From: an uncultured virus (IMG/VR IMGVR_UViG_3300019378_000034)
Lineage: Duplodnaviria; Heunggongvirae; Uroviricota; Caudoviricetes
DNA length: 64,000 nucleotides
Virus record (IMG/VR): IMGVR_UViG_3300019378_000034
Direction: 5' to 3' (one strand)
Shown here: piece after piece, positions 2,518-50,686 of the stretch
Layout of the letters: each line of letters starts with the position of its first letter
How positions within the stretch are numbered: the first letter of the stretch is position 1
Notes under the pieces: generated by a model
What the model was told of the DNA's origin: nothing
Database searches by the model: none
What the model saw: only the letters and a program-made list of their open reading frames with translations
Program-made: the position numbers and the translations under genes

Positions 2518-2672
2518 ATGGAAAAGTTTACTGCGGCGCAGCTTATAAAGTAAAAGATTTTCTGGAAAAAGATGAAGGATATAGCGTTATCTTGTCACTA
2601 ATGATGACTTCATTTAGTTTTTGTATCAATTGGCGCGAACCCGAAAATTTTTCCAAAAATCCTGTCGGTTGA
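2518..2672 (+). pseudogene. internally deleted, frameshifted fourth paralog
   Basis: AGGAGG RBS then MEKFTAAQ (family N-terminus), stopping after 11 codons; the family C-terminus LEKDEGY...CINW lies in another frame. Confidence 0.55.
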
Positions 2673-2688
2673 TGCTGTTCGCGCCGAA

Positions 2689-3117
2689 TCAATTAATTTC
2701 ACCAAACCAGCCTTTTGCTTTAGCTAATTCTTCTTTTTGAATTGTCTCAATTCCTAAATATGGTTGTTGTTTTAATTTTAGAGTCTGAATAGCTTCAAGG
2801 TAATTACAAGGAATTCTTTGATTATTGGTTGAAAGTTGTTGATTGAATAAAGGCTAGTATAGAAATATATAATCTCTTTCTTTTTGTTTTAGATTTTTAG
2901 GATTTACACTTTCTATGATATTAAAAGATATTTCGTGACCTCTTTCAAGAAAGTTTTTCATAAGAGGATACCACAATTCTTGGCTATTTAAAATATTATA
3001 ACGATGAGAAAGAGCACGACCATATAGGTCAGCGCTCTACCCTATATATACCACTCTGCCATCAATACTTATGGAGTAAATGCCACTTTTAATTCCATGA
3101 TTATTAAAATCAAGCAT
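2689..3117 (-). CDS. GIY-YIG endonuclease (TAG=Gln, 142 aa)
   Basis: SGIYSI...VYIG*S (YIGQS) and E..YI..Y*PLFN motifs; in-frame TAGs at 3037-3039 and 2854-2856; TGA stop. Confidence 0.8.
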
Positions 3118-3265
3118 TATTTTTGTCCTCCTGTTCTAAGAATTTGATGATTGCGCGCCGCATAATTGAACTAACACTTTCTTGATATTTGGCGCAAAGT
3201 TGGTCAATTTTTTCTTTGGTTGCGCAGTCTACATAGGTTTGAACTTGATATTTTTTATTAGTCAT
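3110..3265 (-). CDS. ribbon-helix-helix (CopG-like) protein (51 aa)
   Basis: GGAGG RBS; KYQVQTYVD strand, KEKIDQLC helix, SVSSIMRRAIIKFL helix; overlaps the GIY-YIG start. Confidence 0.7.
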   Translation of the reverse strand: MTNKKYQVQTYVDCATKEKIDQLCAKYQESVSSIMRRAIIKFLEQEDKNNA

Positions 3266-3852
3266 TGATTAGACCTCCAAATATTTTCTAGAATTTTCTA
3301 TAATTTAAGTCAAATTATCGTAAAATAAGGCAATTTATTTGAGGACTGAATTTTGGCATATAAAAATTTTCTGAAAATTCTGTAGCAACTGATGGACAAT
3401 TTACACATTTAAAATGTAAGTAAACTTATAAATATACTTATAATTAAAAGGGTACCGCAAGGTACTCCGCAACTTGTACTTCTACTTATAAGTATATGTA
3501 TAATTTATCTTATATTTAAAGGGCTAGTTGCAGCTGGCGTAGCCACGTACTCGGCCCGTACGTACATCTTCTTGTACATATAAATGTACATATATACGTA
3601 CATTTAAAGGACCTCAATCCGGCCCGTCCGTACCGCAGCTGGTACAGCAGGAGGACACCTCCACTTATAATTATACGTATATTTATTGGGCATGGGCCCG
3701 CAAGTCCAGCTCGTAATGTGGCCTCGTAAAAGTCAGAGGAGACCTCGTCGTGCACGATGGCGGCTTGTTAGATAGTGAGTTATTTGAATTTGTTTTAATT
3801 TGTTCCTGGCGCAAATTTTTATATACATCAAATTATAAGTATACTTATAATT

Positions 3853-4007
3853 AGAAGGGAGCATAAATAACACTTAAATCACAGCTCCCTTACAAATTTA
3901 TTTATATGTATTGGAATTGCTTTTTTCTTACCTCCCTTACCCATCATTGGCAATTCCTTTACTTACCATGACCGTCACTCAAGGCCGAACGAGTGGCGGT
4001 CTTTCTT
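3853..4007 (+). ncRNA. putative three-hairpin small RNA with anti-Shine-Dalgarno loop
   Basis: Stems AAGGGAGC/GCTCCCTT (3855-3891), GGAATTGC/GCAATTCC (3913-3957) and GACCGTCACTC/GAGTGGCGGTC followed by TTTCTT (3970-4007); a U-G wobble favours the + strand; no ORF. Confidence 0.55.
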
Positions 4008-4081
4008 ATACGAAAAATTGTGAAAACTTGACACCAATGAAAATTTGACGTGACGGGCGCCGCATAAGTTTATACACAAAG

Positions 4082-4112
4082 AAAAATCCCCTAGACCCGT
4101 AGGTCTAGGGGA
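4082..4112 (-). terminator. intrinsic terminator
   Basis: TCCCCTAGACC/GGTCTAGGGGA hairpin with a U-tract on the - strand, just after the 4131 stop. Confidence 0.8.
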
Positions 4113-4130
4113 CAATTCACTTGAGACAAC

Positions 4131-4511
4131 TCACTCAGCCGCAACAGCGGTGTAAGCTTTCTGAGTTCCCTTCTTGGGAATCTTAACCTCAGTCTGGACA
4201 GCCAGGCCCAGCTCAACAGCCTTACGGCACAGGGAGCTTGCCTTCTGAACCTTGATTTCCTCGCCCAGCATCTCGGTCAGCTCAGCGGCAACATCAGTTG
4301 CAGTCTTGGCTTCAGCGCCCAGAATTTCAGCAGCGACACGACGTGCCAGTGCTTCATTTGCATCACGCTTAGCCTGTTCCTTCTCGGATACCTTGCCCTT
4401 ACGAGCTGCCAGCTGAGCATCCATCTTGATCAGCTGCTCTACAGCAAAGTCCTTCATTTCCTCGGTCATTTCGCCTTCGGATACCTTAACAAAAAATTCA
4501 CGCTTAGTCAT
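4131..4511 (-). CDS. putative winged-helix DNA-binding protein, paralog A
   Basis: MTKREFF...KASSLCRKAVELG...VKIPKKG; clear paralog of 7131-7523. Confidence 0.7.
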   Translation of the reverse strand: MTKREFFVKVSEGEMTEEMKDFAVEQLIKMDAQLAARKGKVSEKEQAKRDANEALARRVAAEILGAEAKTATDVAAELTEMLGEEIKVQKASSLCRKAVELGLAVQTEVKIPKKGTQKAYTAVAAE

Positions 4512-4593
4512 TTGCGTTTCTCCTTCTCGCGTTGGTCGCGACCCATAAAATGTTTATAAGTTAAGAGTTACATCTCTCTTACTTTCTATATAT

Positions 4594-4723
4594 ATTATAC
4601 CAGAAATTTGTAGCTTTTTCAAATTTCGGCAAGTAAGATTTCCCAAAAGATTTTACAGCTTTTTCTGTTATATCTCTCTCAACCTTACACATATATTATA
4701 CCTTAAATTTCCAGCTTTTTCAA
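4594..4723 (-). promoter_or_regulatory. tandem duplicated sigma-A promoters
   Basis: TTGAAA-N17-TATAAT at 4622-4594 and at 4723-4695, with similar flanks. Confidence 0.75.
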
Positions 4724-5035
4724 AGTTTAGCAGCTGCTATGAAAATTTGACAAAACGCAGCTGGCGCAGCTGATGTAGCTGGTTTGTAGCTGCTTTGGAA
4801 ATTTGACAGGGGTGGAAACTTGACACCGACAGTGGTGCCGTGCCGGACAAGTCAAATTTTAAGTGATGTCAAATTTTGGCCCGCATAAAATTCCATAATT
4901 ATTTGTCAACTTGTTATGTCAACCTAAAGGAAAATTGTGTAAATTGCACAAAGAAAATTTGAAAAAATTAAATTTAGACGCAACACGTCTAAATAACTGC
5001 CCATGAAAAATGTCCGCCAGTGGCGGACACTTCTC

Positions 5036-5944
5036 TTAGAAATCACAGTCGATGTAATCAGCAAATTCGGGATGCTGATATACAAACTTTTTAACAGTGC
5101 CGAGGATACGGAAGGGGAAATACTCAATTCCCATTTCAACCTGATTCTTGGCTTTCTTGACAATCAAGGCGAAAATCTCACTTTCGATGTCGGCATCGTC
5201 AATGGCGGTGTGGGCTTCATCAAAGTCCAGTTTACCAGAGGCGAATCTGTAAGCGGTTTCGGCAGAGGTCTTGAAATATTTTCCGCTTTCGGTCTGCCAT
5301 CCGTTGCGCAGGCAAGTCGCCTTATATTCATCATTATCCATGATGTACTTACAGGACAGGCCCCAGAGGTCAAACAGGGGATAAACTTTGCCACGGAAGC
5401 GGAAAACATCGGGGTCAAACTCTTTGGAATTGGAGGAGCCAAAACCGTTTGCGATTTTTTCGCAAATCTGATTCTGATTTCTCAGCCAGTCATGGAAGTC
5501 GGGGGAGTAAAGCTGATTGATATACAACTCAGTAAAGGGGATTGCTTTCTTGAAGTCAAACATGGAGTTATAGGCGCCGACAGCTTCGACGTGCTCCATG
5601 TCCGCCACCAGTTCAGCGGAAGCGGTTTTCCAGTCGGTCAAAGTGATTTCGCCCCGGTTCAGCTTCTCGATATATAAAGGACGTTTGGAAGCATAATAGG
5701 CGGTATCGAAAATGGAAGGGACGGAGAAGATCTCAGAAATCAGAAAATTTTTCCGGCTGTAGACTCTACCCTTTTTGTCGATAATTTTCCAGCCCAGGTC
5801 ATAAATGAGCGGTTTTGCAATCGCCACATTTTTCTTTGCTTCTGCCGGCAGGTTGCCCGCGCAGGGCAGGGTTGCGGATTCGCAATCCAACACAAGATAA
5901 TACTTGCGCCGACGGTCAAACTTCACACTAACGCTTGCTTTCAT
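5036..5944 (-). CDS. DEDDh 3'-5' exonuclease
   Basis: LDCE (ExoI), AYNSMFD (ExoII), HTAIDD (ExoIII) motifs. Confidence 0.8.
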   Translation of the reverse strand: MKASVSVKFDRRRKYYLVLDCESATLPCAGNLPAEAKKNVAIAKPLIYDLGWKIIDKKGRVYSRKNFLISEIFSVPSIFDTAYYASKRPLYIEKLNRGEITLTDWKTASAELVADMEHVEAVGAYNSMFDFKKAIPFTELYINQLYSPDFHDWLRNQNQICEKIANGFGSSNSKEFDPDVFRFRGKVYPLFDLWGLSCKYIMDNDEYKATCLRNGWQTESGKYFKTSAETAYRFASGKLDFDEAHTAIDDADIESEIFALIVKKAKNQVEMGIEYFPFRILGTVKKFVYQHPEFADYIDCDF

Positions 5945-7130: not shown

Positions 7131-7523
7131 TCATTCGGCATCAGCCGTGGTTGCCACGGCGTACTGCTTCATCTTGCCCTTCTTGGGAATCTTGATTTCG
7201 GTCACGGTCAGGCGACCATCTTCGACCATCTGGCGACACATGGAGGAAGCCTTGGAGGTGGAAACTTCATCGCCATCAGCGGTGGTCACGCCCTGCTTGT
7301 TGAGAGCTTCGGCAATGTCGGGAGAGGTCATGCCACCCTTTTCGGTCAGCAGGTTCAGAATGGAAATCTTGAGGGGTTCGTTCGCCTTGGACTTGGCGGA
7401 CTGCTGTTCAGCACGCTTGGCGTTGGTTGCATCCAGCTTCGCAATCTGCTCCAGGGCGTGTGCAACTTCGGCTTCGCCAACGATATTCTTGGACACATTC
7501 ACAAAAAACTCACGGTTAGTCAT
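7131..7523 (-). CDS. putative winged-helix DNA-binding protein, paralog B
   Basis: MTNREFF...MTSPDIAEAL...KASSMCRQMVEDG...IKIPKKG. Confidence 0.7.
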   Translation of the reverse strand: MTNREFFVNVSKNIVGEAEVAHALEQIAKLDATNAKRAEQQSAKSKANEPLKISILNLLTEKGGMTSPDIAEALNKQGVTTADGDEVSTSKASSMCRQMVEDGRLTVTEIKIPKKGKMKQYAVATTADAE

Positions 7524-12690: not shown

Positions 12691-14025
12691 ATGGCAAACC
12701 GATTACACTTGGATTTTTCAATCCAATCTACCGATGGGCGCAGTGACTTTGTAAATGAATATGTACAGCAACCTTAGTTTTAGCGTACTCCTCTTACAAG
12801 TGACGAATTAGAAACCATCGCTAACTACATTTTATGGGGCAAGGACCCGGATGGTCTAAATGTGACCTAGCGTGGTGAAATTTAGATTGAAACCCGTAAC
12901 AAAACATGGCAACGAGATGATACGGAATCCCTTGATGCCCTGATGGAGTCTCCCACATTTTCTGAGGCCAGTTTACGTCGCCCCACCGAAGCGCGCACAC
13001 GTGTTGCCCGCGAAGTCTTCGACCGCAAAAAGACCTTGAGTGAATGTCCTGCACACTTAGTCCCCGTATTCGAAGACCTCTTCAAACGAATCGACACAAT
13101 CGAACTCATGCTCAACTACTACGAATTTTCGCACGGGCGCCGTAAAGAGCCACCTCGTGCTGCCCTTTTAAAACGTTTTTCACAAGAGGAACTCACCAAT
13201 GCTGAAACAACTGCTTCCAAATGGAACCAATTCAAATATCTCAAATAGCGCCATCTCATCGTCGAATTGCGCCGAGAGCAATTCACATTGCGCGACACCT
13301 ACATAGAGAAACATATCCGTCATACTCCTATTGAACCAGAGATTGACCCAGTCGACCCCGACTTTGATGCAGAAATTCCGGTATTTCCCTTGGGACTTAA
13401 AACTGGCTCAATTGGCGCCCTGTTGTTCAAAGCAGAACGAGATTTAAACCCTTCTACTTATAATGAGTCAGACCTACAAAAAGTTTTATAGTTCTATTGG
13501 TCCAAAAAGTCCGAATCGCGCCCTGCAATTTTCTTCGACTTTGGAAATCTTGAGCACATATATGAACTATTCGGCCAACTCAATGAACTCGAAGAATCAA
13601 TCAGCGCCCTGCCCGTTAACTCAAATCTTAGCAAACTTTTGGACACTCTAAAATATTATATCGAGATGACCGACTTAACTGAAGCCTAGCGTGAAATCCT
13701 CGACTTGAAAATCAACAAAACAAAAAATCAAGACATAGCGGACATTATAAACAAGAAATACGACAAGTCCTACACGGCTAATTATATTAGCACCATCTTC
13801 CGTCAAAAGATAATTCCGCGCATCAATGAAACAGCTGAGTTCCATGCGAAGATTATAGAGAATCTAAGTTTTCCAGAGAATTTCAAAAAATGCACAGGAT
13901 GCGGAAAGGTCTTGTTGATTGATCCGGACAAATTTGTCCGAAAATCCCGTTCAAAAGATGGCTTCTCAACTCGTTGTAAAATCTGTGATAGAAATGACCG
14001 CTAGAAAAAGAAGGTGAACAAATGA
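12691..14025 (+). CDS. putative transcription regulator (HTH plus C-terminal Zn ribbon), TAG=Gln, 444 aa
   Basis: Track ORFs 12943, 13267 and 13705 share a frame and are separated by TAG only; LTEA*REILDLK...NQDIADIIN resembles sigma region 4; CTGC...CKIC; ends TGA overlapping the next ATG. Confidence 0.65.
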
Positions 14026-15340: not shown

Positions 15341-17142
15341 TGGCTAAAAAGATTTTATTACCTGCAGAAAGATTGATTGACTCAAACATCAAAATTGGTT
15401 AGCGCGATGGTACTATTATTGAGAAAGGTGTTATTCTAAACGAGAATTATTTGGAAGCAAATTTGGAAAAGATTGGCAATGTTATGTCAATCTTTTCCGC
15501 TTATCCAGATATTTATCTTGATGTTATAAAACCATAGGAATCATCATTTACTCTATTCTTTTACCAGAGAATTACATTGCGCGCACTGATGCGTTTTAAA
15601 GATGTTTTCGGCACGGCGCCTCGTGCGTTCTCTAAATCTTTTATTACTATTTTAGCAATGATGCTTCAATGCATCTTCATTCCTGGTACAAAGCGATTTA
15701 TTTGCGCTCCTAATAAAACTCAGGCCGCGCAGATTGCAAAAGAAAAAATCGTCGAAATTTATGACCGATGGCCCCTACTTCGCAAAGAAGTTTTGGGAGG
15801 GGAAATCAGTGATACACCCGGCAACTTTGGTAAAGACTATGTTACCCTCAAATTCCGCAATGGCTCACAATTTGACGTTGTTGGCGCCCTGGACTCTCAG
15901 CGTGGTGGTCGTCGACATGGCGGCCTAATTGATGAGGTGCGTGACCATGATGAAACTCCTATCAATGAAGTTGTTCTTCCTCTAATGAACGTTTCGCGCC
16001 GACTGCCCGATAACACAGTAAATGAAAAAGAGCCAAATCAGCAGCGAATATTCATGACATCTGCGGGCGTAAAAACATCGTTCGCATATGACCTTTTAAT
16101 TGACGACTTTATTGACTCAATCATTCACCCAAAATCAACTTTTGTTTTTGGTTGTGATTATCGTGTTCCAGTTATTCATGGCCTACTTGACAAAACCTAT
16201 ATCAACAAACTTAAAACATCTTCTTCCTTTAAAGAAGAATCTTTTGCCCGAGAGTATGCATCACTTTGGTCAGGTTCTTCAGAAGAAGCATGGTTTAATT
16301 TTGATAAATTAACCAAATATAGAAAGATAAAAAACCCAGAAACGTCCGCAAAATTTAGAGCTAACTCTAACCAGTTCTACTTATTATCAGTAGACGTTGG
16401 TAGATTGAATGACCAAACTGTCTGTTGTGTTTTTAGAGTTAACGTATCTGGCGAGGGCAAATATTTTGCTACTCTTGTAAACCTATACGTCCTAGGCCGT
16501 CAGGCTGAGACAAAAACTTTTAATCGACAAGCAATCGAACTCAAACGCATCATCAAAAAATTCAATCCTCTAGAAGTTGTTATCGATACCAACGGTCTAG
16601 GTATTGGTTTTGCTGATGAAATGATTCGTGAACAAGTCGATGAATTCGGAAACATTTACGAGCCTCTAGGTTTCAAAAATGATGACGAATTCCTAAAAGT
16701 TCAACCAAAAGATGCAATGTGCATCCTGTATGGTATCAAAGCCAATGGACCTCTTAACTCCAAAATCCACGGTAATGCTTACACCCGCATAAATGGCGGC
16801 CTTGTTCGCTTCCTCATAAAAGAACAAGAAGCAAAGAATGCTCTATTATCTACCAAGGTCGGTCAGAAAATGACGGTCAAGCAACGCGTACAGCGTCTAA
16901 TGCCGCATGAAATGACCACAAAACTTTTTGAAGAAATGGCTAACCTAAGACTACGCCGCACCGGTGTTTCTCTTGATATTGTCCTCGAACAAATTAATCC
17001 ACGTTATCCAAAAGATAAATATTCAGCATTTGCTTATGGATTATGGCGTATTAAGGAACTCGAAGAAGAACAAAACAAGAGACGGCGCCGTCGTGGTATG
17101 TTCGACAAACGTTAGCTAGTTTTCTGTACTGGAGGAGTCTAA
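15340..17142 (+). CDS. terL: terminase large subunit (TAG=Gln, 600 aa)
   Basis: APRAFSKSF Walker A variant, GLIDE Walker B, SVDVGR RNase-H-like nuclease, KDKYSA; TAATG coupling. Confidence 0.9.
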
Positions 17143-47735: not shown

Positions 47736-47865
47736 AACAAAATAAACAAAAACTCCCTAATGCTTTTTGTGCATTAGGGAGATTCTTTTTGTCCATCAGT
47801 GAAAAACAATTATCCATAGCCTTCTAGCCTAACTTATAGTCAGAAGGGTAAGAGGAGGTAAGAAA

Positions 47866-48300
47866 ATGAATCCAGTAAATAATAACAATTATATGAATTT
47901 CAATCAACCTGCTAACTTTCAGCCATATCAAATGACACAATACTTCCCACAACCATAGGGCAGTATTTACATGATAGGTAATTCAAGTGAGGTGGCTAAT
48001 GTTCCAGTGGGTGTTGGATTATCTGCTGCTATTTGTTTGCGCGAAGGACTAATATATTTAAAGACAATTCAAAATGGTAGTCCAATGCTACTAAGTTATA
48101 AGCTAAGTCCTTTAGAAAACAATACACTAATCCAAGAAAAAATAATTCAAAATCCTAACCCAACTGATGCTCCGGTATCGGCACCGGAGACATCAATTGA
48201 ACAAAGAATTTTAAACGTTCTGGAAGAATTTGATGCTAGATTGAAAAAGCTAGAAACTCCAGAAAAATCAAAGGGAGGAAGTGAAAAATGGTAGCTATGA
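47866..48300 (+). CDS. Cys-rich module gene 1, Asn/Gln-rich N-terminus (TAG=Gln)
   Basis: GAGGAGG RBS; TAG at 47956 and 48292; TGA stop. Confidence 0.65.
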
Positions 48301-48530
48301 ATCCAATGAATTTAATGATGATGTTAAAGCAAGGCAACCCTCGGCAAGTTGCTATGCAAATCATCCAAAATAACTATCCCAATGACCCGCGCATGAGTCA
48401 ATTGGTTCAAATGGCGGAAAGAGGAGACGTTCAAGGATTGCAAAGAATTGCTGAAGAGACTTTTGGTATGCAAGGTAAAAATTTTTCGGCCGAAATGAGT
48501 AACCTACTGCAAAGCATAAGAAACTTCTAA
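48288..48530 (+). CDS. module gene 2, Met/Gln/Asn-rich helical protein
   Basis: MNPMNLMMMLKQGNPRQ; GGAGG RBS (alternative start 48297). Confidence 0.7.
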   Translation: MVAMNPMNLMMMLKQGNPRQVAMQIIQNNYPNDPRMSQLVQMAERGDVQGLQRIAEETFGMQGKNFSAEMSNLLQSIRNF

Positions 48531-48571
48531 GCAATTTATATAAATAAAAAACCTTTAAGGGAGGTACAAAA

Positions 48572-49354
48572 ATGATGGGTAATGAAGGAATCTCTGTAGC
48601 TGATGCTTTGGCGCTTCGTGGTAATGGTGGCTATAATGGCGGCTCCGGCTTTGGTGGTTGGGGCGGCGATGGCGCATGGTGGATTATTATTCTAATTCTA
48701 CTGTTCGGCGCAGGTGGCTGGAATCGTGGCGGTTTCGGCGGCAATGGCAACGGTGGAGGCGGTGCTTGTTGCACTCCTGCAACTGCTCAGGGCTTAGCCG
48801 ACGCTTTCAATTTCAACCAGTTAGACAACAGCCTAAGAGGCTTAGAGAGAGGTCTATGTGATGGCTTCTACAACAACGCTCAGCAAGTAAACTCTGTTCT
48901 AGCAGCTTTGCAGAATTGCTGCTGCGACACAAAGATGGCTATGATGACTGGCTTTAATGGTGTTAACCAGGGTATTTGCAACCTAGGTTATAATATACAA
49001 GCTGGCTTCAATGGCGTAACTAATCAACTAGCTTCTTGCTGCTGCGACATCGAGCGCGGCCAGGATGCTATAAAGTATGAAATCGCTAACGTAGCTAACA
49101 ACTTGCTAGTTGCTGGCGATAAGAATACTGACCGTATTATCAATTATCTAAATCAGACTGAAATGGATAAACTGCGTACTGAACTACAGTCCGCTCAGTT
49201 CCAGCTATCTCAGCTATCTCAGACTGATAATATCATCAATCGTCTAATGCCTGTGGCAAAGCCTGCCTATCTGACTTGCTCTCCTTATGCTTCTGCATTT
49301 GGTTTGAATCAGAATTTCGGTTTCGGTTTTAACAATGGTTGCGGTTGCTGCTAA
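48572..49354 (+). CDS. module gene 3, Gly-rich/TM/coiled-coil protein with CCC motifs
   Basis: GGWGGDGAWWIIILILLFG, two CCCD motifs, C-terminal GCGCC; biased codons, TAG-free. Confidence 0.8.
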   Translation: MMGNEGISVADALALRGNGGYNGGSGFGGWGGDGAWWIIILILLFGAGGWNRGGFGGNGNGGGGACCTPATAQGLADAFNFNQLDNSLRGLERGLCDGFYNNAQQVNSVLAALQNCCCDTKMAMMTGFNGVNQGICNLGYNIQAGFNGVTNQLASCCCDIERGQDAIKYEIANVANNLLVAGDKNTDRIINYLNQTEMDKLRTELQSAQFQLSQLSQTDNIINRLMPVAKPAYLTCSPYASAFGLNQNFGFGFNNGCGCC

Positions 49355-49421
49355 TCAACTACTCCGCTAATGCGTGATTCTGGCGGGCGCTTCGGCGCCC
49401 TCCATTGAGAGGTGAAAAGAA

Positions 49422-49814
49422 TTGAGTTGTCCTAATGTAAGACGTCTATGCAAAAATCTGGTAATTTCTACCGCAGTTACTTTTGCAGATGGCACTTTAA
49501 CTATTAACATTCCTGCTGGAAATTACGGAAATGGATGTAAGTATTGTCTGGTGGTGGCACAGGCTATTCCAGCAGAAACAACTATTACAGCTCCAGTAGT
49601 AATTACTATTGGTGATGGAACAACTGAATACGACCTAGTAGGATGTGATTGCAGTCCAATAACCGCTTGCTCTATTAATACTAGAACAAGATACAGCACT
49701 ATTGTTAGCACCAATACTACAACCGGCGTATTCAAACTTTTAGGAAAGCTACCTTGCTCTCGCTGCACTGAAAACTTAGCTTCTCTACCAGTAGCAGAAG
49801 CGCCAACTCCTTAA
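49422..49814 (+). CDS. module gene 4, Cys-rich beta protein
   Basis: GAGGTG RBS, TTG start; several Cys, Thr-rich. Confidence 0.7.
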   Translation: MSCPNVRRLCKNLVISTAVTFADGTLTINIPAGNYGNGCKYCLVVAQAIPAETTITAPVVITIGDGTTEYDLVGCDCSPITACSINTRTRYSTIVSTNTTTGVFKLLGKLPCSRCTENLASLPVAEAPTP

Positions 49815-49829
49815 TGTGAGGTGACGTCG

Positions 49830-50309
49830 ATGCATAAACTGATGGAACAAATCAAAAAAGAGCTTGTAGAGATTGAACAGAAAGGAGTCAATGCTAGCAA
49901 TTTAGAGCTAATCGGCAAACTCGCTGATATCTACAAGGATTTAAGCGAAATCGAAAATATGGATAAGGGAGGTCAAGGAATGATGGAATATGGCAGATAT
50001 CGCGAAAACTATCGCGATGGAGGCTACAACGCTCGAGGCAATTATCGTGACGGAGGTTATAATGATGGCTATGGCCGCCGTTACAGTCGTATGAGAGACT
50101 ATATGGACCGCATGGTAGATGGTATGGACCAGTATGAATATGGTAAAGAGCGTTATATGCACGGTGGTGATGATGGCCGTGTCATGGAAGGTCTCGAAAA
50201 GCTAATGTATGCTATGTGTATGTTTGTTGAATCAGCCATGGACTTTGCTGAGACTCCACAGGAAAAAGAGATTATTAGAAAACATCTTCATAAAATTAGT
50301 CAACTATGA
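49830..50309 (+). CDS. module gene 5, protein with YRDGGYN repeats
   Basis: GAGGTG RBS; Tyr/Arg/Gly low-complexity middle; start 49821-49830. Confidence 0.7.
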   Translation: MHKLMEQIKKELVEIEQKGVNASNLELIGKLADIYKDLSEIENMDKGGQGMMEYGRYRENYRDGGYNARGNYRDGGYNDGYGRRYSRMRDYMDRMVDGMDQYEYGKERYMHGGDDGRVMEGLEKLMYAMCMFVESAMDFAETPQEKEIIRKHLHKISQL

Positions 50310-50686
50310 TGTTCTGTTTTTATAATGCGAATCCTCGTGGACGTCATGTAAATGATTGCACTGTCCGTGCGATATCCAAAGCAACAAACAGAAGCTGGGA
50401 TGAAAACTACCGAGAGCTAAGTCATTATGCTTAGTTACTATGTATAATGCCTGATGATGTAACCTATATAGATGAATATCTAGATACACACTTTGAAAAA
50501 ATATATTTATGCAAGAAATGTCGTCTAACGATAAGAGAGTTTGTGGAACACAACCCACTTGGAACCTTCTTGATAACGATGAACGGTCATATAACTTGCG
50601 TTATTGACGGAGTGATATATGATACCTTCGACCCTTCTAATAGGTTCATTTGGGGTGTTTATAAAGTAAAAGAGGGAGTCTTATGA
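50306..50686 (+). CDS. module gene 6, putative papain-like cysteine hydrolase (TAG=Gln)
   Basis: NDCTVRAI (Cys)...GHITCVIDGVIYD (His/Asp); ATGA overlap; TAG at 50432. Confidence 0.6.

What the first reader, a model, noticed from the sequence alone, without database searches (positions are those of the whole stretch)
3853..4007. Putative trans-acting sRNA whose loop is antisense to the RBS of a module 44 kb away
Seen: three consecutive hairpins ending in a terminator-like stem with a U tract. The loop of hairpin 2 holds TTTTCTTACCTCCCTTACCC (3923-3942). Its reverse complement GGGTAAG-GGAGGTAAGAAAA matches GGGTAAGAGGAGGTAAGAAAA at 47846-47866 (20 pairs, one bulged A), which covers the Shine-Dalgarno and runs to the A of the ATG of the first Cys-rich module gene. 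On the - strand this SD-like word has no start codon after it. Both loci carry the ACTTA-N5-AGA motif. Established: loop-exposed anti-SD sequences are how many Firmicutes sRNAs block translation. Inference: a phage sRNA controls the uncharacterised module. Caveat: purine-rich RBS sequences raise the chance of a match.
Basis: partly seen in the sequence, partly recalled or inferred. Interest (0 to 1): 0.8.

Follow-up and report, generated by a model that had tools for sequence, protein, structure and literature searches.

The report
Phage small RNA targeting split cassette
An uncultured phage carries a previously undescribed ~150-base folded RNA whose exposed loop matches the ribosome-binding sites of several genes of one unstudied gene cassette, including a member that has moved far away in the genome, so it is probably an off-switch for that cassette, though no experiment has shown it yet.

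Summary
Observation confirmed and extended. Window 3853-4007 (+) folds into three hairpins (z -6.8). It is kept in one ~80%-identical relative with two compensatory stem pairs, an unchanged 12-nt loop core and no shared ORF. The core's five best partners among 166-168 called starts of this TAG=Q phage all belong to the Cys-rich cassette family: ORF1, ORF3, ORF2, an internal ORF5 start, and a 68-aa gene 96 kb from the cassette. I picked that gene by complementarity; its homologues then proved to lie inside the cassette in 14 of 14 other viral loci. In the relative the top three of 146 starts are again ORF1, ORF3 and orf68, whose leader changed at four bases yet still pairs. In five complete relatives without the RNA only 1 of 25 cassette starts ranks in the top five. 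Best reading: a trans-acting anti-SD sRNA that represses the cassette (0.7). Limits: two related genomes only; transcription not shown (three RNA runs gave no cover); RNA and targets share one promoter motif, so the timing is unexplained; host targets untested. No Rfam match. The scan has noted anti-SD phage RNAs and this cassette separately on other DNA; I found no note of this RNA.

The parts
3842..3855 (+). Phage promoter-like motif (TACTTATAATTAGA), probably late class; predicted start near 3853. Overlaps a weak sigma70-like match and the right half of a 22-bp palindrome
   Evidence: right half identical in the relative, left half changed; start site inferred, not measured
3853..4007 (+). 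Predicted small RNA, about 150 nt, three hairpins
   Evidence: the minus strand folds less well
3855..3891 (+). Hairpin 1 (5' stem); two of 8 pairs changed on both sides in the relative, loop variable
   Evidence: stems compared by hand; RNAalifold on the MAFFT alignment counts one two-sided change
3913..3957 (+). Hairpin 2 with 27-nt open C/U-rich loop (3922-3948)
3931..3942 (+). Conserved 12-nt anti-SD core CCTCCCTTACCC (pairing seed)
   Evidence: identical in the relative although both loop flanks are shortened
3957..4007 (+). Invariant linker, hairpin 3 (terminator-like) and U-rich tail
   Evidence: 3957-4004 is 48 of 48 identical in the relative; no partner found for the linker or loop 3
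47831..47844 (+). Same promoter-like motif ahead of the cassette
47843..47866 (+). Predicted target 1: leader and SD of ORF1 (22 pairs, -34.2 kcal/mol)
   Evidence: core match kept in the relative
48271..48287 (+). Weak predicted target: RBS of ORF2 (not kept in the relative)
48556..48572 (+). Predicted target 2: RBS of ORF3, the 260-aa Cys/Gly-rich protein (11 contiguous pairs)
   Evidence: kept in the relative
49959..49980 (+). Predicted target 3: SD of an in-frame internal start in ORF5 (match weakened in the relative)
47866..50686 (+). Six-gene Cys-rich cassette (ORF1 47866-48300, ORF2 48288-48530, ORF3 48572-49354, ORF4 49422-49814, ORF5 49821/49830-50309, ORF6 50306-50686). A seventh family member and predicted target 4, orf68, lies outside the window at G000:C1:4079-4285 (+), site 4060-4073
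   Evidence: no Pfam or NCBIfam family

Best explanation
3853-4007 is the gene of a trans-acting phage small RNA. It is made from a phage promoter at about 3853, folds into three hairpins and displays a C-rich loop. The loop core pairs over the Shine-Dalgarno sequence of a small set of the phage's own mRNAs (ORF1, ORF3 and the displaced orf68 in both genomes; an internal ORF5 start and ORF2 in this genome) and blocks ribosome loading, which damps or delays the Cys-rich cassette as a unit. Shown from sequence: fold, conservation, complementarity and its restriction to cassette-family genes. Inferred: transcription, pairing in the cell, and that the outcome is repression.
For: Fold z -6.84 and -6.18 in the two genomes; compensatory pairs in hairpin 1 and no shared ORF on either strand; plus strand favoured. 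Core ranking: the top 5 of 168 starts are all among the 8 cassette-family starts; the relative's top 3 of 146 are ORF1, ORF3 and orf68. Nulls: 4 of the top 4 in the cassette in 2 of 700 random and 5 of 400 shuffled flanks; as strong in 0 of 700 and 2 of 400. Controls without the RNA: 1 of 25 cassette starts in the top five of five complete relatives; orthologous RBSs elsewhere as good as ours in 0 of 14 (ORF1), 0 of 37 (ORF3), 0 of 12 (orf68). Independent check: orf68 was picked by its leader and then found inside the cassette in 14 of 14 viral loci and in Dulem virus 36. Its leader differs at four adjacent positions in the relative and still pairs; 6 of 81 such four-base changes would bind as well. 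C-rich unpaired loops block initiation in Firmicutes sRNAs (PMC2790875, abstract).
Against: Only two distinct versions of the RNA were found, in genomes about 80% alike, so most agreement can be shared ancestry; the relative is three contigs assumed to be one phage. No transcript: three RNA runs that hold the neighbouring gene have zero cover over 3853-4007 (contigs of other strains, so weak). No two-sided compensatory change between loop and RBS. In the relative the ORF1 duplex alone is reached by 20 of 500 shuffles, and the ORF2 and internal ORF5 matches are lost. A cassette start is top in 189 of 400 shuffled loops, so these purine-rich RBSs are favoured by composition. With the full loop and opening energies, two unrelated genes outrank ORF2 and orf68. 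ORF4, ORF5's main start and ORF6 are not matched. RNA and targets share one promoter motif, which does not explain why one would repress the other. Host mRNAs were not examined.
Confidence: 0.7

Rival explanations
1. The RNA pairs with the same leaders but its main effect is to protect or store the mRNAs (blocking 5'-to-3' decay) or to set the ratio of cassette proteins, not to switch the cassette off.
For: The ORF1 and orf68 sites lie within about 25 nt of the predicted 5' ends; RNA and targets share a promoter motif and would be made together; RoxS bound at a 5' end blocks RNase J1 (PMC5419742, abstract).
Against: All sites cover the SD itself, and the target leaders have no strong inhibitory fold to be opened; the ORF3 and ORF5 sites are internal to the message.
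Confidence: 0.1
2. It is a real RNA, but its important targets are host mRNAs or it works through a protein; the cassette matches are a by-product of strong purine-rich RBSs.
For: The 3' 48 nt are invariant with no phage partner found; composition favours cassette RBSs; host unknown and untested.
Against: Cassette RBSs are not favoured in five relatives without the RNA; 1 of 130 other cassette RBSs has the matching 9-mer; the displaced orf68 carries the match.
Confidence: 0.1
3. The loop is an inverted copy of the ORF1 leader picked up by recombination, now neutral; the hairpins are terminators or part of the adjoining palindromic DNA element.
For: The match to ORF1 is long (21-24 nt); 3400-3860 is a palindrome-rich region whose repeat unit forms arrays in relatives; no RNA cover.
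Against: Does not explain ORF3 and orf68; the core is kept while both flanks were shortened; the neighbouring minus-strand gene has its own terminator at 4113-4086; G-U pairs and the T tail favour a + strand RNA.
Confidence: 0.07
4. The shared word is a protein-binding site (a translational repressor or DNA operator), and a minus-strand transcript shows it in a loop as a decoy.
For: On the - strand the word also lies in a hairpin loop; four RBSs share it.
Against: Minus-strand folds are weaker (z -2.49, -3.15); no promoter-like site was found for that strand between 4007 and 4086; no terminator tail on that side.
Confidence: 0.03

Closest known systems
C-rich-loop sRNAs of Firmicutes: RsaE/RoxS and other Rsa RNAs (PMC2790875, PMC5419742; abstracts seen)
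   Same: Unpaired UCCC-containing loop that pairs with G-rich RBSs of several mRNAs; terminator-like 3' hairpin.
   Different: Phage-encoded, no sequence or Rfam match, found in one phage lineage only; one long loop with a 12-nt seed; predicted targets are the phage's own genes of one cassette.
c4 antisense RNA of phages P1/P7 (as summarised in PMC12197685, section 7)
   Same: Phage RNA that pairs near the RBS of a phage mRNA through loop-displayed sequences and blocks translation.
   Different: c4 controls the antirepressor in temperate coliphage immunity; here the predicted targets are 3-5 starts of an uncharacterised cassette up to 52 kb away in a TAG-recoded phage with Firmicutes-phage relatives; no Rfam match.
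SviR of the Vibrio phage satellite (known only from a passage in PMC10884466)
   Same: Small RNA acting in trans on phage transcripts.
   Different: SviR is made by a satellite against an invading phage; this RNA matches its own genome's leaders and 1 of 130 cassette RBSs of other phages.
Stop-codon-recoded gut phages, Agate-like in size and code (10.1101/2021.08.26.457843, passages seen)
   Same: Large genome, TAG=Q in late genes, CTA suppressor tRNA.
   Different: Clade membership not tested; the passages I saw deal with recoding as the timing control, not with an sRNA.

Membership tests
RsaE/RoxS | Match to the Rfam model / sequence homology | tested here: not met
   0 Rfam hits at gathering score in the window; none of the 12 weak hits in 3300-4150 covers the RNA as a bacterial sRNA
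RsaE/RoxS | Unpaired UCCC motif | tested here: met
   loop holds UCCC, unpaired probability >=0.97; open in the relative's fold too
RsaE/RoxS | Pairs with target RBSs and blocks initiation complex formation | tested here: inconclusive
RsaE/RoxS | Chromosomal gene of Staphylococcaceae/Bacillaceae | tested here: not met
   15 pattern hits in genome contigs, none a model match better than E 0.1
c4 antisense RNA (P1/P7) | Homology to c4 | tested here: not met
   no Rfam match
c4 antisense RNA (P1/P7) | Target is the antirepressor (ant) mRNA of an immunity region | tested here: not met
   predicted targets are cassette genes with only unknown-function PHROG matches or none
c4 antisense RNA (P1/P7) | Loop-displayed sequence complementary to a phage RBS, acting in trans | tested here: met
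   in silico only
Type I antitoxin RNA | Encoded beside or opposite its toxin gene | tested here: not met
   targets lie 44-46 kb and 52 kb away
Type I antitoxin RNA | Target is a small toxic protein | not testable with these tools
   orf68 is 68 aa with no assigned family; toxicity to the bacterial host unknown

The most novel reading that the evidence does not exclude
A recoded phage holds a split operon together with RNA: after one gene of the widespread Cys-rich cassette moved 96 kb away, a lineage-specific late sRNA and the leaders of the cassette's independently started genes became matched, so that one 12-base seed sets timing or dose of the scattered set, as a second lock on top of TAG recoding (ORF1 and orf68 carry in-frame TAGs, ORF3 does not).
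Probability: 0.35. Interest if true: 0.8.

Novelty: new variant of a known kind. Interest (0 to 1): 0.65.

Why it matters
A 2024 review says the role of non-coding RNAs in lytic phages is still to be worked out (PMC10884466, passage). This is a specific, testable sRNA-target set inside one large phage. It also gives a handle on a common gut-phage cassette of unknown function: it suggests the phage limits the cassette's dose or timing, names the genes that matter, and adds orf68 as a member even where it has moved away. Using a loop seed to find scattered members of an operon worked here and could be reused.

Tried and rejected
RNA evidence: 8 runs listed; 4 were laid on 2600-5600. Three RNA runs cover only the neighbouring genes, with zero depth on 3853-4007; the fourth, of unrecorded type, covers it. 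These are contigs of other strains from random-primed libraries, so this neither shows nor excludes the RNA. Search for more homologues: model R1 found only the window and the relative among 79 sources including five complete relatives, only the same three records among 100 pattern loci, 0 of 10 further phage records, and only the relative among 44 more loci; no second copy in the own genome; no hit in isolated phages; both metagenome pattern hits failed the model. R1 rests on two sequences and would miss diverged forms. No orphan antisense copy of their own cassette RBSs was seen in five relatives. Targets for loop 1, both linkers and loop 3: nothing convincing, longest exact matches 10-12 nt. 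Coding reading: the 46-aa minus-strand ORF over the 5' end is not kept in the relative. orf68 homologues were not found beside the cassette in the 80 loci fetched with ORF3, so the link holds for orf68-bearing phages, not for all cassettes; Clostridium phage CS266P4 has orf68 without an ORF3 match nearby. GC skew peaks near the locus but follows the coding strand, so it does not place an origin. Atlas searches named neither ORF3 nor orf68. Supplements of the papers were not looked at; the review's table of 38 unassigned phage sRNAs (PMC12197685, Table S1) was not checked.

Full report
Setting. The window is 52,012-116,011 of a 122,525-base linear virus record, estimated 82% complete. Structural genes are open only when TAG is read as Gln, and the genome has 36 tRNAs, one with a CTA anticodon. 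The capsid-like protein's matches among isolated phages are mostly phages of Bacillus, Enterococcus, Clostridioides and staphylococci, so a Firmicutes host is likely but not identified.

The observation. 3853-4007 folds into three hairpins, -45.8 kcal/mol, z -6.84, 0 of 200 shuffles as good. The 27-nt loop 3922-3948 is open. Scanning both strands of the genome, the best non-self duplex is the ORF1 leader. Among 166 starts called by my own script it is first, -34.2 against -26.6, and 0 of 400 shuffles that keep the anti-SD hexamer reach that value. No Rfam family or tRNA matches.

Is it an RNA gene? One diverged copy was found (L003, record G006). It folds the same way (z -6.18). Compared stem to stem, two of eight pairs of hairpin 1 changed on both sides (the automatic alignment counts one). 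Both flanks of the loop are shortened while a 15-base run with the 12-nt core is unchanged; 3957-4004 is 48 of 48 identical, against 97 of 131 just upstream and 54 of 78 just downstream. No ORF is shared. The minus strand folds less well in both genomes. The upstream motif behaves like a phage promoter: a pattern that I tuned after seeing the sites occurs 17 times, 11 of them 23-40 bases before a start, and 10 of those 11 genes contain TAG codons (p 0.0003). Many are homing-endonuclease-like genes by their N-termini (family names recalled), so I read it as a late promoter; this is inference. Transcription was not shown.

The target set. Two words complementary to the loop core each occur three times in the genome: once in the loop and twice at an RBS. 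The four RBSs are ORF1, ORF3, an in-frame internal start in ORF5, and a lone 68-aa gene at genome 4079, outside the window, behind the same promoter motif. Ranking all starts with the conserved core puts these four and ORF2 in the top five of 168. Random flanks give four cassette starts in the top four in 2 of 700 trials, shuffled flanks in 5 of 400. With the whole loop the order is less clean: by duplex energy orf68 is fifth and ORF3 sixth, and with opening energies the order is internal ORF5, ORF1, ORF3, two unrelated genes, ORF2, orf68.

The independent test. When I picked orf68 nothing tied it to the cassette except my recollection of similar genes. A profile search gave 105 relatives. With a subset of nine, 14 viral loci were retrieved; in 14 of 14 the homologue lies just after an ORF3 match, as in Dulem virus 36. 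Several of the 14 are near-identical phages, so they are fewer than 14 independent cases. One isolate, CS266P4, has it without ORF3, and the 80 loci fetched with ORF3 showed no orf68 match. So orf68 is a cassette member in other phages and has been displaced by 96 kb here, yet carries the match.

The relative. G006 (RNA), G007 (cassette) and G011 (orf68) share a sample prefix, do not overlap and are each collinear with this genome at roughly 70-94% identity by segment, about 80% overall for G006 and G007; I treat them as one phage, which is inferred. There the core ranks ORF1, ORF3 and orf68 first to third of 146 starts. The ORF1 leader keeps the 12 core pairs, and the extra eight pairs are lost on both sides; this is joint loss, not compensation. 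The orf68 leader differs at four neighbouring positions inside an otherwise nearly unchanged stretch and has moved to the other pairing register; 6 of 81 possible four-base changes bind as well. Against: the ORF1 duplex alone is matched by 20 of 500 shuffles there, and the ORF2 and internal ORF5 matches are gone.

Controls without the RNA. In five complete relatives with the cassette and no model match, cassette starts rank 27th to 181st except one (ORF5 of G001, first), i.e. 1 of 25 in the top five. Orthologous RBSs from other phages reach our values in 0 of 14, 0 of 37 and 0 of 12 cases for ORF1, ORF3 and orf68, while our ORF4 and ORF5 are ordinary (start calls for orf68 homologues are uncertain because of gene overlap). 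The match therefore goes with the RNA, but that rests on a single lineage.

Mechanism. Most likely the loop pairs over the SD and blocks 30S loading, as shown for the unpaired UCCC of RsaE (PMC2790875, abstract) and described for c4 of P1/P7 (PMC12197685, section 7). The matched starts are the first genes of both transcription units and the separately started ORF3; ORF2 overlaps ORF1's end and may follow by coupling. Since RNA and targets share a promoter motif, a threshold, delay or dose limit fits better than an early/late switch; a weak sigma70-like site (10 such sites against 5.0 expected in the region) could give the RNA a head start. ORF1 and orf68 have early in-frame TAGs and ORF3 has none, so the RNA would add a control that recoding does not supply. 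All of this paragraph is inference.

Literature. Seven searches returned nothing on this RNA or cassette. Seen: passages of 10.1101/2021.08.26.457843; the first sixth, passages and section 7 of PMC12197685; abstracts of PMC2790875 and PMC5419742; passages of PMC10884466. No supplements were read. Earlier notes of this scan describe the cassette and other anti-SD phage RNAs on other genomes, none on this DNA.

Verdict. Real structured RNA gene: about 0.9. Pairs with cassette leaders in the cell: about 0.8. Represses them: 0.7. It works like a C-rich-loop sRNA but belongs to no catalogued family; new variant of a known kind; interest 0.65.

Noticed in passing
G000:C1:4079-4285 (outside the window): 68-aa orphan gene with TAG at codons 3 and 20 and its own promoter motif; a displaced member of the Cys-rich cassette.
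   Followed up: yes
window 49964-49982: Strong SD plus in-frame ATG inside ORF5; a similar SD and start codon lies inside ORF5 of several other cassettes (L030, L032, L037, L038, L044, L048, L056, L057), suggesting a second, shorter Arg/Tyr/Gly-rich product.
   Followed up: partly
window 3400-3860: Palindrome-rich non-coding region with the unit TATACTTATAAGTA; tandem arrays of it occur near the same gene family in relatives (L170-L187, G002:62549-62597) and near GC-skew maxima in several genomes. Possible origin, terminus or partition site.
   Followed up: partly
window 3493-3452 (-): Second copy of the promoter motif on the minus strand followed by a hairpin and T run: a ~45-nt RNA or the leader of the RHH (3110-3265) and endonuclease (2689-3234) genes; well conserved in L003.
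   Followed up: no
window 4131-4511 (-): 126-aa protein with a paralogue at 7131-7523; the best-covered gene of this stretch in three gut RNA runs of related strains. No family assigned; lies next to the palindromic region in relatives.
   Followed up: no
G000:C1:15146-31054: Cluster of 36 tRNA genes including a CTA (amber suppressor) tRNA at 15442-15516.
   Followed up: no
G000:C1:268-2331: Avd-like gene and a reverse-transcriptase-like piece of a diversity-generating retroelement; a 101-base repeat pair at about 117-217 and 808-908.
   Followed up: no
G000, 17 sites incl. window 3842, 12489, 47831: Promoter-like motif ACTT(A/T)-x-(A/T)-x-T-x-AG ahead of many endonuclease-like and TAG-containing genes; the main structural operon at 12691 lacks an obvious copy.
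   Followed up: partly
L052:4047-5093 and L055:4049-5095: A 348-aa ORF is inserted between ORF3 and ORF4 of the cassette in these relatives.
   Followed up: no
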